DNA of 64,000 bases from an uncultured Alphaproteobacteria bacterium (GTDB lineage Bacteria; Pseudomonadota; Alphaproteobacteria; HIMB59; GCA-002718135): NCBI GenBank assembly GCA_902614085.1, contig CACMJS010000001.1, forward strand, positions 299,127 to 363,126, in the 5' to 3' direction. Both the position numbers and the translations under genes were made by a program. Under the pieces are notes generated by a model. It searched no databases, was not told the origin of the DNA, and saw only the letters and a list, made by a program, of their open reading frames with translations. Positions within the stretch are counted from its first letter, which is position 1. Every line of letters starts with the position of its first letter. Of the stretch, positions 30,206 through 38,751 are shown one piece after another.

Positions 30206-30904
30206 ATGAGAGTAGTAATTTTAACTTGTTATCCTGAGATGTTCCCTGGTTCACTAGGATATTCTGTAATCGGAAATGCATTAAACAATAAAAAATTTTC
30301 TCTCGAGATAGTCAATCTACATAATTTTGGAATTGACAAAAGAGGAAGTGTTGATGATGAACCTTTTGGGGGAGGCCCTGGAATGGTTATTCGTCCAGAT
30401 GTGATTGAAAAAGCATTAAATTCAATCACTTTCAAAACCGATAATTACTGCAAAATTTTTCTAACACCGTCAGGTCAGAAATTATCTCAAGCCAAACTTA
30501 ATAATCTATCAAAACATGATGAAATGCTTATTTTATGCGGTAGATTTGAAGGGGTTGACCAAAGAGCTATAGAAATTCTTGATTTTCAGGAAATAAGTAT
30601 CGGTGATTACGTCCTATCTGGTGGTGAGATTGCTGCCCAGGTGTTAGTTGAAGGTTGTATTCGTCTCATTCCTGGAGTATTAGGGCAGCCACAAAGTTTA
30701 TTAGAAGAATCTTTTTCTAATAATCTTCTTGAATATCCTCATTATACCAGACCACAAACCTGGGAAGATATTCAGGGAAATAAACATGAAGTTCCAGATG
30801 TTTTAACATCAGGTCATCATGAAAAAATTGATAAATGGAGAAAAGAAAAATCGGTTGAAAAAACTAAAGAATTAAGACCAGATCTTTATAAAAAGGAAAT
30901 ATAA
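30206..30904 (+). CDS. trmD: tRNA (m1G37) methyltransferase TrmD
   Basis: [42 protein letters not shown]; ATG 30206 preferred over TTG 30197. Confidence 0.97.
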
Positions 30905-34623: not shown

Positions 34624-35667
34624 ATGACTCAAAGATACAATATAGCAGTAGCAGGAGCAACAGGTGCGGTAGGAACAGAAATAGTTCAAATATTAGAGCA
34701 AAGAGATTTTCCAATAGACAATTTATATTTACTTGCATCATCAAAATCAAAAGGCAAAAAAGTAGAGTTTAAAGATAAAGAAATTGTTGTAGAAGACTTA
34801 TCAGAATTTGATTTTTCAAAAGCTCACATTGGTTTATTTTCACCTGGTGGTAAAATTTCTGCAGAATATGCGCCAAAAGCAGCTAAAAAAGGATGTATTG
34901 TTATAGACAATACCTCTCATTTTCGAATGCAACAAAATATTCCTTTAATCGTTCCTGAAGTAAACGCTAATGCACTTGATGAATTTTTTGATGATGAAAA
35001 CAGAACTAATATTATTTCAAATCCTAACTGCTCAACTATACAAATGGTTGTTGCATTAAAACCACTTCATGAAAAAGCAATTATAAACAGAGTTGTTGTA
35101 TCAACATATCAAGCTGTTTCTGGAGCAGGTAAAACAGGTATGGATGAATTATTTAATCAGACTCAAAATGTTTATGCAAACCAAGAATTAAAAAAAGAAA
35201 AGTTTACAAAACAAATTGCTTTTAATGCGATTCCACACATTGGAGCTTTTTTAGAAAATGGTAATACAGAAGAAGAGCAAAAAATGATTGATGAAACAAA
35301 AAAAATTCTAGACGAGGGAATTAATGTTTCAGCAACTTGTGTTAGAACAGCTGTATTTATTGGCCATTCAGAAGCTGTAAATATAGAGTTTGACTCACCA
35401 TTAGACGAAAAAGAAGCTAACGAAATATTATCTAACTCTGAAGGTATTTCAGTAATTGATCATCGAAAAGATGAAGGTTACGTGACTCCAGTTGAAATTG
35501 CAGGAGAAGATAAAGTTTATATTAGTAGAATTAGAAATGATCAATCAATAGATAATGGTCTGAATCTATGGGTAGTTTCAGATAATTTGCGAAAAGGAGC
35601 GGCACTTAATGCTGTTCAAATTGCTGAGTTAGTAATTTCAAAGTACTCAGAAAAAATAACTATTTAA
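34624..35667 (+). CDS. asd: Aspartate-semialdehyde dehydrogenase
   Basis: GATGAVG, NPNCST, QAVSGAG, DNLRKGAALNAVQIAE. Confidence 0.98.
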   Translation: MTQRYNIAVAGATGAVGTEIVQILEQRDFPIDNLYLLASSKSKGKKVEFKDKEIVVEDLSEFDFSKAHIGLFSPGGKISAEYAPKAAKKGCIVIDNTSHFRMQQNIPLIVPEVNANALDEFFDDENRTNIISNPNCSTIQMVVALKPLHEKAIINRVVVSTYQAVSGAGKTGMDELFNQTQNVYANQELKKEKFTKQIAFNAIPHIGAFLENGNTEEEQKMIDETKKILDEGINVSATCVRTAVFIGHSEAVNIEFDSPLDEKEANEILSNSEGISVIDHRKDEGYVTPVEIAGEDKVYISRIRNDQSIDNGLNLWVVSDNLRKGAALNAVQIAELVISKYSEKITI

Positions 35668-35668
35668 T

Positions 35669-35743
35669 TGGCGGTCTCGTAGGGACTCGAACCCCAAATC
35701 CATGTTCCGAAGACACGTGTGATATCCATTTCACCACGAGACC
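35669..35743 (-). tRNA. tRNA-Arg (anticodon UCG)
   Basis: GGTCTCG-TG-GTGA-AATGGATA-TCAC-A-CGTGT-CTTCGGA-ACATG-GATT-TGGGG-TTCGAGT-CCCTA-CGAGACC-G-CCA: full cloverleaf, A20 Arg identity element, G37, encoded CCA. Confidence 0.95.
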
Positions 35744-35791
35744 TTTTGTTTATGAAACATTATATAGTATAAATTGAGTCTATAAAATATT

Positions 35792-36574
35792 ATGTCATTT
35801 TATCTATCTAAAATTTTATGGTTAATATTAAATCCTTTTAACATTTTTATTTTTATTACTTTGTTTTCAATTTCTTTATATTTTTTTAATTTGAGAAGAG
35901 TAAGTCTAATTATTTTTTTGATTAACTTTATATTTATTGCATTCATTTCTTTTATACCTATTGGAAGCTTTCTTATTTACAAAATTGAAAAGGAATATCA
36001 TTCACATATAAAAATTCCTGAATTAGTAGATGGTATACTAATACTTGGCGGAGCAACAGATCCATTACTTTTTAAAGAATATGATCAAATAAGTCTAAAT
36101 GGTTCTGCTGAAAGATTAGTTGAATCTGTAATGATTATTAAAAAATTTGATAAAGCTAAAGTTATTTTTAGTGGTGGATCAGGTATTATAAATAGACCTG
36201 ATCTTGGTCATTCACAAGTTGCTAAATCTTTTTACAAAAAAATAGGTATAGAAATCGACCAAATAATTTTTGAAGATCATTCAAGAAATACTTATGAGAA
36301 TATAATTTATTCAAAAAAAATCGCTAATCCAAAAATAAATGAAAATTGGTTATTAATAACATCTGCCTTTCATATGAAAAGAGCATTACTTATTGCAGAT
36401 AAACATAATTGGAAATTAATTCCCTATGCTGTAGATTTTAAAAATATTAGAAATTTTAAATTAACTCCTAATCTTAAATTATTAAAAAATCTAAATTCAT
36501 TCCAGCAAGGATCACATGAATGGCTAGGTTTAATTTCATATTATTTAATGGGAAGAACTGCCAAAGTTTTCTAA
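35792..36574 (+). CDS. YdcF/ElyC/SanA (DUF218) family membrane protein
   Basis: ILILGG, SRNTYEN, LITSAFHMKRA, HEWLG. Confidence 0.9.
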   Translation: MSFYLSKILWLILNPFNIFIFITLFSISLYFFNLRRVSLIIFLINFIFIAFISFIPIGSFLIYKIEKEYHSHIKIPELVDGILILGGATDPLLFKEYDQISLNGSAERLVESVMIIKKFDKAKVIFSGGSGIINRPDLGHSQVAKSFYKKIGIEIDQIIFEDHSRNTYENIIYSKKIANPKINENWLLITSAFHMKRALLIADKHNWKLIPYAVDFKNIRNFKLTPNLKLLKNLNSFQQGSHEWLGLISYYLMGRTAKVF

Positions 36575-37477
36575 TTTTTTAATAAAATCCTTTAAAATTG
36601 GATCTCTTTTTATTTCATAGACTATTTTAATTGGGTGCCTATTTTTATCTGAAGCCCATTTCATATCATCTAAAAGAATTGGAGATGGAATTGTGTTAGT
36701 TGGTGCCCAGTCTTCGTTTAAGACATAACCAACTGCTGCCATATCCCAAATTTCTTTTGACCAACCTTTATGGATACTATTGTACTCTTTAAATCGCATT
36801 GCTAGAAATTTACCGATTTCACCATGAGGTTCGATGTATTTTTCTATTTCTGGAACTGTTGAAATAAGATGTGAAGTTACTCCTTTACAAGGAACCATAA
36901 CGAGAGAAACACCGCTATCAAATAAAACTTGAGCACCTCCAATATCTTGCTTTAAATTAAATTCCAAATTTTGTGGCCAATAAAGCGCATTACCTCCCAA
37001 CCAAACTACAACAAGTTTTTTTATAATTTCTGGCTCTTTTAATATTGCAGACGCAACATTTGAAATAGCGCCGATAGCTAATACGTATAGAGGATCTTCT
37101 TCAGAACATTTTAAAGCACTTTCTATGATATTATCTGCTGCAGGCGAATTAATTGGTTTTTTTTCAAAACCTACATATTTTGTTGAGCCTTTAAAAACAA
37201 AATTATTTTTTTTAAAATTTATTTTTTCTAACAATCGAAAGATTTCATCGTAACTAAGCTCCATTCCCTTTTTTGGATTATTCGAACGATTATTCATTGA
37301 AAAAGGAGCTGCATTTATACTTTGCACTTCAATTTTTTCTTTTGAAAACAACATTTGCACTAAAGCAAATTGATCATCAATTTCATTGTAGGTATCTGTA
37401 TCAAGAATTGCTTTAATTTTCCCTTTTTTAAACTTAAGTTGTTTTAAAATATCTGAAAAATCTCTCTCTAAAAGCAT
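36545..37477 (-). CDS. Nucleoside hydrolase (IunH family)
   Basis: DTDTYNEIDD (DxDxxxDD) Ca-binding motif, EFNL, WD in place of catalytic HD. Confidence 0.88.
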   Translation of the reverse strand: MLLERDFSDILKQLKFKKGKIKAILDTDTYNEIDDQFALVQMLFSKEKIEVQSINAAPFSMNNRSNNPKKGMELSYDEIFRLLEKINFKKNNFVFKGSTKYVGFEKKPINSPAADNIIESALKCSEEDPLYVLAIGAISNVASAILKEPEIIKKLVVVWLGGNALYWPQNLEFNLKQDIGGAQVLFDSGVSLVMVPCKGVTSHLISTVPEIEKYIEPHGEIGKFLAMRFKEYNSIHKGWSKEIWDMAAVGYVLNEDWAPTNTIPSPILLDDMKWASDKNRHPIKIVYEIKRDPILKDFIKKLENFGSSSH

Positions 37478-38079: not shown

Positions 38080-38751
38080 ATGACATTAAGTAATTTAAAC
38101 AAATCCATTATTCATTGTAGAAAGTGTGAACGCTTAGTTAACTTCCGTGAAAAAATTGCTAAAGAAAAAAGAAAACAATATATTGATCAAATTTATTGGG
38201 GTAAGCCAATTACTGGTTATGGAGATGAAAAAGCTAAATTGTTAATGGTAGGTCTTGCGCCAGCAGCACATGGAGGAAATAGAACAGGTCGAGTTTTTAC
38301 AGGGGATAAATCCGCAGATTTTTTATTTTCCTGTTTATATAAAACTGGATTTGCAAACCAACCAGATTCAGTAGATAGAGGTGACGGATTAGAACTTCAA
38401 AATATGTACTTAACTACTGCTCTTAAATGTGTACCCCCAGAAGATAAACCTACGTCACAAGAATTGAAAACATGTTTTAATTTTTTTAATCAAGAAATTG
38501 CTTTCTTAAAAAAAATAAAAGTCATTGTTGCCCTTGGTAAAATTGGTCATGACGCCTGTGTAAATTATTATAAGCAACAATATGAAATACGAAATAAAGA
38601 TTTTATTTTTTCTCACGGATCTATGAATATTTTACCTGATAAGAAAATTTTAGTTGGTAGTTATCATCCAAGCCCACGAAATGTTAACACAGGAAGAATA
38701 GATAAAAGTAAAATGGTAAAGCTTTTAAATAGTATTAAAAAATTGCTTTAA
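38080..38751 (+). CDS. Uracil-DNA glycosylase family 5 (UdgB-like, Fe-S)
   Basis: CRKCERL, GLAPAAHGGNRTGRVFTGD, KCVPP, YHPSPRN. Confidence 0.92.
   Translation: MTLSNLNKSIIHCRKCERLVNFREKIAKEKRKQYIDQIYWGKPITGYGDEKAKLLMVGLAPAAHGGNRTGRVFTGDKSADFLFSCLYKTGFANQPDSVDRGDGLELQNMYLTTALKCVPPEDKPTSQELKTCFNFFNQEIAFLKKIKVIVALGKIGHDACVNYYKQQYEIRNKDFIFSHGSMNILPDKKILVGSYHPSPRNVNTGRIDKSKMVKLLNSIKKLL

What the first reader, a model, noticed from the sequence alone, without database searches (positions are those of the whole stretch)
35669..35743. tRNA-Arg with the rare UCG anticodon
Seen: complete cloverleaf with loop CU-UCG-GA, A20, G37, a 4-nt variable loop and a GUGA/UCAC D-stem. Established: most bacteria read CGU/C/A with tRNA-Arg(ICG) made by TadA; UCG is uncommon and in some Mollicutes accompanies loss of TadA, with U34 reading the whole box. 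Inference: this lineage may have changed its CGN decoding or acquired an extra tRNA to read CGA, which is used in the window.
Basis: partly seen in the sequence, partly recalled or inferred. Interest (0 to 1): 0.62.

Follow-up and report, generated by a model that had tools for sequence, protein, structure and literature searches.

The report
Lineage-typical arginine tRNA with UCG anticodon
This is a real, working arginine tRNA gene whose UCG anticodon replaces the usual CCG tRNA in a whole order of AT-rich marine bacteria, while the standard ACG tRNA and its editing enzyme TadA are kept, so it is an ordinary, inherited variant of normal decoding.

Summary

The genome is 96% complete, 29.6% G+C on its largest contig, and belongs to the HIMB59/AEGEAN-169 order of Alphaproteobacteria. 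It also holds tRNA-Arg(ACG), a full-length TadA homologue, and tRNA-Arg UCU and CCU. It has no tRNA-Arg(CCG).

So UCG is not an extra tRNA, and this is not Mollicutes-style loss of TadA. It takes the place of CCG: it is the only cognate reader of the very rare CGG (108 codons) and gives a Watson-Crick reader for CGA (1204 codons).

The arrangement is inherited. All 8 genera sampled in the order have UCG and none has CCG. Across 401 good Alphaproteobacteria genomes, UCG occurs in 23 and CCG in 337.

The gene has an unusual short scaffold that I found only in this order. On 11 variants, 100% of cells pair and 11 of 21 pairs show compensatory changes. In the sister family the same scaffold also carries ACG, which looks like an anticodon shift.

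The scan has flagged tRNA-Arg(UCG) on other DNA many times. Interest is low to moderate.

The parts
35669..35743 (-). tRNA-Arg(UCG) gene, 75 nt with encoded CCA. It has a short scaffold: D stem GUGA/UCAC, 8-nt D loop, 4-nt variable loop.
   Evidence: ARAGORN; Rfam RF00005 56.5 bits; sequence; covariation 100% paired with 11 of 21 pairs changed on both sides; 95-100% identical in 25 same-genus genomes
35708..35710 (-). Anticodon UCG (the plus strand reads CGA), flanked by U33 and G37
   Evidence: C35 and G36 are invariant in the alignment of 11 scaffold relatives; position 34 is U in nine and A in the two sister-family ACG genes
35759..35786 (-). Promoter-like site TTTATA-16-TATAAT. Its -10 hexamer ends 15 nt upstream of the mature 5' end.
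   Evidence: Consensus scan, 10 of 12 matches. The region yields 4 such sites against 3.2 expected from shuffles, so this is suggestive only.
34624..35667 (+). asd (aspartate-semialdehyde dehydrogenase), convergent with the tRNA. Its stop codon ends 1 nt before the tRNA 3' end. It is a conserved neighbour of the tRNA in this family.
   Evidence: ORF; asd lies next to the tRNA in a second genus, G440; the downstream flank is shared with G016
30206..30898 (+). trmD, the tRNA (guanine37-N1) methyltransferase. It is the enzyme expected to methylate G37 of this tRNA.
   Evidence: TIGR00088 262.7 bits, above the cut-off of 195, at G000:C1:329332-330024. That it acts on this tRNA is an inference.

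Best explanation
This is the chromosomal, vertically inherited tRNA-Arg(UCG) of the HIMB59/AEGEAN-169 order. Two tRNAs read the CGN arginine codons:
- tRNA-Arg(ACG), deaminated by TadA to ICG, reads CGU, CGC and, weakly, CGA.
- tRNA-Arg(UCG) reads CGA by Watson-Crick pairing and CGG by U-G wobble.

UCG therefore fills the role that tRNA-Arg(CCG) has in most bacteria. CCG is not found anywhere in the order.

This fits a very AT-rich genome, where third codon positions are 84% A or T and CGA is about eleven times commoner than CGG. A U34 tRNA serves both codons, and every other four-codon box in the genome also keeps a U34 tRNA.

Shown: the gene, its structure and conservation, the tRNA set, the TadA homologue, and the codon counts. 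Inferred: charging with arginine (from A20, C35, G36), which codons each tRNA actually reads, the modification state of U34 and G37, and the selective reason.
For: The gene and its fold:
-.

The whole-genome tRNA set:
- 33 tRNAs are found.
- The arginine tRNAs are ACG, UCG, CCU and UCU, with no CCG.
- Every four-codon box has a U34 tRNA.

The TadA homologue:
- It is 154 aa and aligns over its full length.
- It carries H(C)E and PCxxC motifs.
- Its six best PDB matches are TadA or the Agrobacterium TadA entry.
- The second deaminase in the genome is a guanine deaminase.

Codon use over 1559 long ORFs:
- CGT 1239, CGC 285, CGA 1204, CGG 108, AGA 11884, AGG 1442.

CGG still means Arg:
- The CGG codon at GltB residue 61 aligns with the R of HRGAVDADGKTGDGAGI in solved glutamate synthases.
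- In MetK a CGG aligns with a basic residue.

Survey of the order, 71 genomes at least 80% complete:
- Every CGN-box tRNA matched is ACG or UCG, never CCG.
- The two genera the fixed pattern missed also have UCG.

Other points:
- The complete sister-family genome G037 has the same four arginine anticodons.
- A TadA-like ORF is found in 69 of 71 order genomes.
- TrmD and MnmG are present.
Against: - There is no direct evidence of expression, charging or modification.
- The TadA homologue scores 96.5 bits against NF008113, below the curated cut-off of 150. Its assignment therefore rests on full-length alignment and best PDB matches.
- The assembly is 96% complete in 11 contigs, so a CCG gene in a gap cannot be excluded for this one genome. 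That is unlikely, because none was found in 71 relatives.
- CmoA and CmoB were not found. U34 may therefore be unmodified and read more than CGA and CGG, which would make the division of labour less clean than stated.
Confidence: 0.85

Rival explanations
1. Same function but a foreign origin. The odd short scaffold was acquired horizontally, for example from a phage tRNA array, at the base of the order and displaced the native CCG gene. It did not evolve from the native CCG or ACG gene.
For: - The scaffold occurs in 5 of 5 order genomes and 0 of 396 other Alphaproteobacteria.
- It is only 55-71% identical to canonical tRNA-Arg genes.
- A tRNA-Arg(UCG) in a 28-tRNA phage array (L183) is 83% identical to it. 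That is as close as genera of the family are to each other. The phage's other tRNAs are 53-80% identical to this genome's.
Against: - The phage hit came from a pattern that fixes 16 of the 75 positions, so part of the likeness is built in.
- The phage contig has 44% G+C, and its other tRNAs are unrelated to this genome's.
- The direction of any transfer is unknown.
- 75 nt cannot resolve a deep tree.
- No viral contig holds the exact 5' or 3' half of the gene.
- Only Alphaproteobacteria were surveyed for the scaffold. My phylum-level attempt was void.
Confidence: 0.25
2. Superwobble. U34 is unmodified, so this one tRNA reads all four CGN codons. That leaves tRNA-Arg(ICG) and TadA largely redundant, a step on the way to the Mollicutes state.
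For: - CmoA and CmoB were not detected.
- Unmodified U34 reads whole boxes in Mycoplasma and mitochondria (PMC3711424).
- Ala and Pro in this genome are served by a U34 tRNA alone.
Against: - ACG and the TadA homologue are kept across the order, which argues that they are still needed.
- The modification state of U34 is unknown.
- MnmG is present and could modify U34.
Confidence: 0.2
3. Mollicutes-like decoding of the CGN box without TadA.
For: UCG is present and CCG is absent, as in some Mollicutes (PMC3711424).
Against: The tRNA-Arg(ACG) gene and a full-length TadA homologue are present in this genome and throughout the family.
Confidence: 0.03
4. Reassignment of CGA or CGG to another amino acid, as in some low-GC Bacillota and Absconditabacteria.
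For: Low G+C and a very rare CGG (0.21 per 1000 codons) are the conditions under which such reassignments have arisen (PMC8629427).
Against: - The tRNA carries arginine identity elements (A20, C35, G36).
- A CGG codon falls on an invariant Arg of GltB.
- According to PMC8629427, a tRNA(UCG) that reads both codons hinders splitting their meaning.
Confidence: 0.01

Closest known systems
Standard bacterial CGN decoding: tRNA-Arg(ICG) made by TadA plus tRNA-Arg(CCG), as in E. coli (PMC3711424 abstract; Grosjean et al. 2010 as cited in PMC8629427)
   Same: The ACG gene and a TadA homologue are retained, two tRNAs serve the box, and AGR codons are read by UCU and CCU.
   Different: The second tRNA has U34 instead of C34. 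CGA therefore gets a Watson-Crick reader and CGG is read by wobble. CCG was not found in any of 71 genomes of the order.
Mollicutes that gained tRNA-Arg(UCG) after losing tRNA-Arg(CCG) and TadA (Yokobori et al. 2013, PMC3711424)
   Same: An AT-rich, reduced genome with CCG absent, UCG present, a strong preference for AGA, and a rare CGG.
   Different: TadA and ACG are kept here. There is no GCG replacement, and UCG is not the only CGN tRNA.
UCG genes made by tandem duplication of the ACG gene and one wobble change. I saw examples in Alphaproteobacteria G353 and G179. An earlier scan report describes the same in pelagic Methylophilaceae (e1-5208532).
   Same: The outcome is the same: ACG plus UCG in streamlined aquatic bacteria.
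   Different: Here the UCG gene is 68% identical to the genome's own ACG gene, lies about 230 kb away, and has a different scaffold. It is not a recent duplicate of ACG.
tRNA-Arg(UCG) in a phage tRNA array (IMGVR_UViG_3300007735_000628, locus L183)
   Same: It has the same GUGA/UCAC D stem and the same CUUCGGA loop closed by a U31-A39 pair. It is 83% identical overall.
   Different: It is 76 nt with a 9-nt D loop, and it sits in a 44% G+C viral contig whose other tRNAs are unrelated to this genome's. It was found with a pattern that forces part of the match.

Membership tests
tRNA (Rfam RF00005) | Cloverleaf of four helices with conserved D and T loop residues | tested here: met
   RF00005 56.5 bits against 29; ARAGORN; 21 pairs paired in 100% of 231 cells, 11 of them with compensatory change
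Bacterial tRNA-Arg (ArgRS identity set known from E. coli: A20, C35, G36 or U36) | A20 in the D loop, with C35 and G36 in the anticodon | tested here: met
   GGAUA motif and the UCG anticodon; these columns are invariant in 11 scaffold relatives
Bacterial tRNA-Arg | Aminoacylation with arginine | not testable with these tools
   Needs charging assays or tRNA sequencing
ICG + UCG decoding of the CGN box (TadA kept, no CCG) | tRNA-Arg(ACG) gene present | tested here: met
   G000:C1:565510-565586
ICG + UCG decoding of the CGN box (TadA kept, no CCG) | TadA present | tested here: met
   A 154-aa ORF at G000:C1:436801-437262. It matches NF008113 over its full length at 96.5 bits, below the cut-off of 150. 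Its six best PDB matches are TadA or the Agrobacterium TadA entry. It is found in 36 of 36 other family genomes. Its activity was not tested.
ICG + UCG decoding of the CGN box (TadA kept, no CCG) | No tRNA-Arg(CCG) gene | tested here: met
   None among 33 tRNAs in the 96%-complete assembly; none in the complete genome G037; no CCG match in 71 order genomes or in the 5 order genomes of the class survey
Mollicutes-type TadA-less CGN decoding (PMC3711424) | Loss of tadA | tested here: not met
   A TadA homologue is present
Mollicutes-type TadA-less CGN decoding (PMC3711424) | UCG alone, or paired with GCG or with an undeaminated ACG | tested here: inconclusive
   ACG is present alongside a TadA homologue. 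Whether A34 is actually deaminated cannot be tested here.
UCG gene from recent duplication of the ACG gene | UCG and ACG genes of one genome nearly identical, often adjacent | tested here: not met
   68% identity, different scaffold lengths (75 against 77 nt), about 230 kb apart on C1
CGA/CGG codon reassignment (PMC8629427) | The codon falls at positions conserved for another amino acid, or the tRNA has non-Arg identity | tested here: not met
   A CGG codon lies at the invariant Arg of GltB, and the tRNA carries Arg identity elements. Only two codons were inspected.

The most novel reading that the evidence does not exclude
The 75-nt GUGA-stem scaffold is a tRNA-Arg lineage peculiar to the HIMB59/AEGEAN-169 order and possibly of phage or foreign origin. 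It first displaced tRNA-Arg(CCG). In the sister family a duplicate then changed U34 to A34 and displaced the canonical tRNA-Arg(ACG) as well. There, a TadA substrate would now sit on a scaffold that began as a UCG tRNA. This would be a two-step takeover of a whole codon box by one tRNA lineage through anticodon shifts.
Probability: 0.35. Interest if true: 0.4.

Novelty: new member of a known kind. Interest (0 to 1): 0.22.

Why it matters
Mostly it matters as a correction. A UCG arginine tRNA in an AT-rich bacterium does not by itself signal loss of TadA or an altered code. Here it is the inherited stand-in for the CCG tRNA.

It also adds a clean, clade-wide example of tRNA sets following base composition, in an abundant group of ocean bacteria. 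A U34 tRNA replaces a C34 tRNA where CGA is common and CGG is nearly unused.

The more interesting by-product is evolutionary. One unusual tRNA scaffold, confined to this order, carries UCG in one family and both UCG and ACG in the other. This offers a natural case for studying anticodon shifts and what TadA requires of its substrate.

Tried and rejected
- **Phylum-wide scaffold search and first viral pattern.** Both were void because I wrote 5 instead of 6 bases between the D stem and the anticodon loop. The own genome did not match, which exposed the error. I repeated them correctly.
- **Positional orthology between the two families.** I tested whether the sister family's ACG or UCG gene sits in the same place as the window tRNA. 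Neither gene in G037 shares neighbours with the window locus, so this is unresolved.
- **Exact 5' and 3' halves of the tRNA in viral contigs**, to look for phage attachment sites. No matches.
- **MFE folding of the single sequence.** It does not return the cloverleaf and gives z = -1.95. This is usual for tRNAs, so I relied on covariation instead.
- **Literature on HIMB59 tRNAs.** PMC3937112 and PMC10734472 say nothing about tRNA-Arg(UCG).
- **Limits of the fixed-spacing patterns.** They undercount. They missed two genera whose D loop is 1 nt longer. The class figures (23 UCG, 337 CCG of 401) are therefore lower bounds.

Full report
**The object.**
ARAGORN reports one tRNA in the 64-kb window: tRNA-Arg with anticodon tcg at 35669-35743 on the minus strand. 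Rfam's tRNA model matches the same place at 56.5 bits, against a gathering score of 29.

The minus strand reads GGTCTCG TG GTGA AATGGATA TCAC A CGTGT CTTCGGA ACATG GATT TGGGG TTCGAGT CCCTA CGAGACC G CCA. The features are:
- anticodon loop CU-UCG-GA
- G37
- A20 in the GGAUA motif
- D stem GUGA/UCAC
- a 4-nt variable loop
- an encoded CCA

The anticodon occupies 35708-35710.

The gene is convergent with asd, whose stop codon ends 1 nt before the tRNA's 3' end. A promoter-like TTTATA-16-TATAAT lies just upstream on the minus strand. That region gives about as many such sites by chance, so this is weak evidence.

**Is it real and functional?**
- The same 75 nt are 95-100% identical in 25 of 36 same-genus assemblies searched, and an 83% variant lies in one more. 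All carry UCG.
- I collected 11 distinct versions of the scaffold from across the order and laid the cloverleaf on them.
- All 231 cells form standard pairs, and 11 of 21 pairs change on both sides.
- No shuffle out of 500 reaches this, and slid controls pair in only 37-52% of cells.
- A single-sequence MFE fold does not recover the cloverleaf. That is usual for tRNAs.

**Whose genome.**
The assembly is 1.65 Mb in 11 contigs and 96% complete. Contig G+C ranges from 27 to 32%, with 29.6% on the largest. It has a two-piece tmRNA.

The closest asd loci come from marine single-cell genomes. Their records are labelled uncultured Alphaproteobacteria, 'Pelagibacteraceae bacterium AG-337-I02', 'HIMB59-LRMED', 'MarineAlpha5' and 'Pelagibacterales bacterium SAG-MED31'. 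Placing the genome in the HIMB59/AEGEAN-169 order is my reading of these labels. The literature treats that group as separate from SAR11 (PMC10308909).

**The rest of the decoding system.**
The whole genome has 33 tRNA genes.
- The arginine set is ACG, UCG, CCU and UCU. There is no CCG.
- Every four-codon box has a U34 tRNA. Ala and Pro have only that one.

A 154-aa ORF on C1 matches the TadA model over its full length. The score is 96.5 bits, below the curated 150. Its six best matches among solved structures are TadA enzymes or the Agrobacterium TadA entry. The genome's other small deaminase is a guanine deaminase.

TrmD is in the window itself at 30206-30898, and MnmG is present. CmoA and CmoB were not detected. 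That agrees with their restricted distribution reported in PMC6063277.

**Codons.**
Counts over 1559 long ORFs:

| Codon | Count |
|---|---|
| CGT | 1239 |
| CGC | 285 |
| CGA | 1204 |
| CGG | 108 |
| AGA | 11884 |
| AGG | 1442 |

Third positions are 84% A or T. CGA is thus as common as CGT, and CGG is nearly unused.

I inspected two CGG codons. One falls on the invariant Arg of the HRGAVDADGKTGDGAGI motif of glutamate synthase. The other falls on a basic position of MetK. Together with the arginine identity elements of the tRNA, this gives no sign of reassignment.

**How it most likely works.**
ICG, made by TadA, reads CGU, CGC and, weakly, CGA. UCG reads CGA by Watson-Crick pairing and CGG by U-G wobble. 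This is the decoding assumed for tRNA(UCG) in PMC8629427, and it is the role that CCG plays in most bacteria (PMC3711424).

So the tRNA is not an addition. It is the second CGN tRNA with U in place of C at position 34, which suits a genome where CGA outnumbers CGG about 11 to 1. Which codons are really read depends on the unknown modification of U34.

**Distribution.**
I used a pattern spanning the D loop, the anticodon loop and the T loop.

| Group searched | UCG | CCG |
|---|---|---|
| 401 good Alphaproteobacteria genomes | 23 genomes (17 of 295 genera) | 337 genomes |
| The five genomes of this order within that set | 5 of 5 | 0 of 5 |
| 71 genomes of the order, at least 80% complete | every match is ACG or UCG | none |

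- The two genera that seemed to lack UCG have it with a D loop 1 nt longer.
- The complete genome of the sister family has the same four arginine anticodons.
- A TadA-like ORF is found in 69 of 71 order genomes. The sister family's diverged copy still matches TadA structures best.

It is nonetheless the fixed, inherited state of this order.

**Origin.**
The UCG gene is not a recent copy of the genome's ACG gene. The two are 68% identical, 75 against 77 nt long, and about 230 kb apart. By contrast, the tandem, near-identical ACG/UCG pairs I saw in two other Alphaproteobacteria are recent copies.

The short scaffold (D stem GUGA/UCAC or GUGU/GCAC, 4-nt variable loop) was found only in this order: 5 of 5 order genomes and 0 of 396 others in the class.

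In the window's family it carries UCG, beside a canonical ACG gene. In the sister family both the UCG and the ACG genes are built on it, and no canonical ACG gene exists. The parsimonious reading is a duplication of the UCG gene, a U34-to-A34 change, and loss of the canonical ACG gene. The direction is inferred, not shown.

One genus of the window's family has a UCG gene on the canonical scaffold instead. That looks like a second origin.

The nearest sequence outside the order is a tRNA-Arg(UCG) in a 28-tRNA phage array. It is 83% identical, while that phage's other tRNAs are 53-80% identical to this genome's. The search pattern forces part of that likeness, so a horizontal origin is a lead only.

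**Verdict.**
- The kind of thing is known. PMC3711424 and PMC8629427 treat tRNA(UCG) as a normal option, and this scan has noted it on at least 45 other genomes.
- What may be new is the order-specific scaffold and the apparent anticodon shift in the sister family.

Noticed in passing
Sister-family genomes, e.g. G037:C1:191867-191938 (L140) and G037:C1:257190-257261 (L138): The sister family has no canonical 77-nt tRNA-Arg(ACG). Its ACG tRNA uses the same odd 75-nt scaffold as its UCG tRNA: 83% identical to that UCG, but 61-71% to canonical ACG genes. This suggests an anticodon shift on a duplicate followed by loss of the canonical gene.
   Followed up: partly
L197 (G467:C19:73080-73220): One genus of the window's own family carries tRNA-Arg(UCG) on the canonical 77-nt scaffold (79-83% identical to canonical ACG genes) and gave no short-type hit. 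This is an apparently independent origin of UCG.
   Followed up: partly
L027 (G016:C14, locus 1330-1575) and L017 (G019:C2, locus 804-1575): The asd-tRNA junction is rearranged in two same-genus genomes.
- One has the native 5' half (positions 1-39), a 133-bp spacer, and a divergent full tRNA-Arg(UCG).
- The other has the intact tRNA, 625 bp with a small ORF, and a degenerate copy.
- Both share the spacer TAGGTGGTATATCTATTTCC...GTGCAG.

This looks like scars of integration or recombination at the tRNA.
   Followed up: partly
Sister-genus genomes, e.g. G051:C1:143520-143551 and 144834-144865: 32-nt copies of the 5' part (positions 7-38) of the tRNA-Arg scaffold lie 1.3-2.8 kb from the ACG gene in many sister-genus genomes. 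They may be remnants of attachment sites.
   Followed up: no
L183 4069-4144 (IMGVR_UViG_3300007735_000628): A viral contig with 28 tRNA genes holds a tRNA-Arg(UCG) that is 83% identical to the window tRNA and has the same GUGA/UCAC D stem. Its other tRNAs are unrelated to this genome's.
   Followed up: partly
G000:C2:88343-88650 (outside the window): A permuted (two-piece) tmRNA with tag ANDNRLALAA, as is usual in Alphaproteobacteria.
   Followed up: no
G000:C3:12520-12990 (outside the window; L032 1345-2639): A 155-aa guanine deaminase (PDB 1wkq, E 4e-47) sits directly downstream of a 276-aa ORF. I took that ORF to be XdhC-like from its sequence alone. The pair hints at purine salvage.
   Followed up: no
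window 36545-37477 and 38080-38751: Two ORFs lie on the 5' side of the tRNA: a 310-aa ORF at 36545-37477 (−) and a 223-aa ORF at 38080-38751 (+). From their sequences alone I took them to be a nucleoside hydrolase and a uracil-DNA glycosylase family protein; no family search was run. Relatives of the 260-aa ORF at 35792-36574 and of the 223-aa ORF also lie beside the tRNA in two other genera of the family.
   Followed up: no
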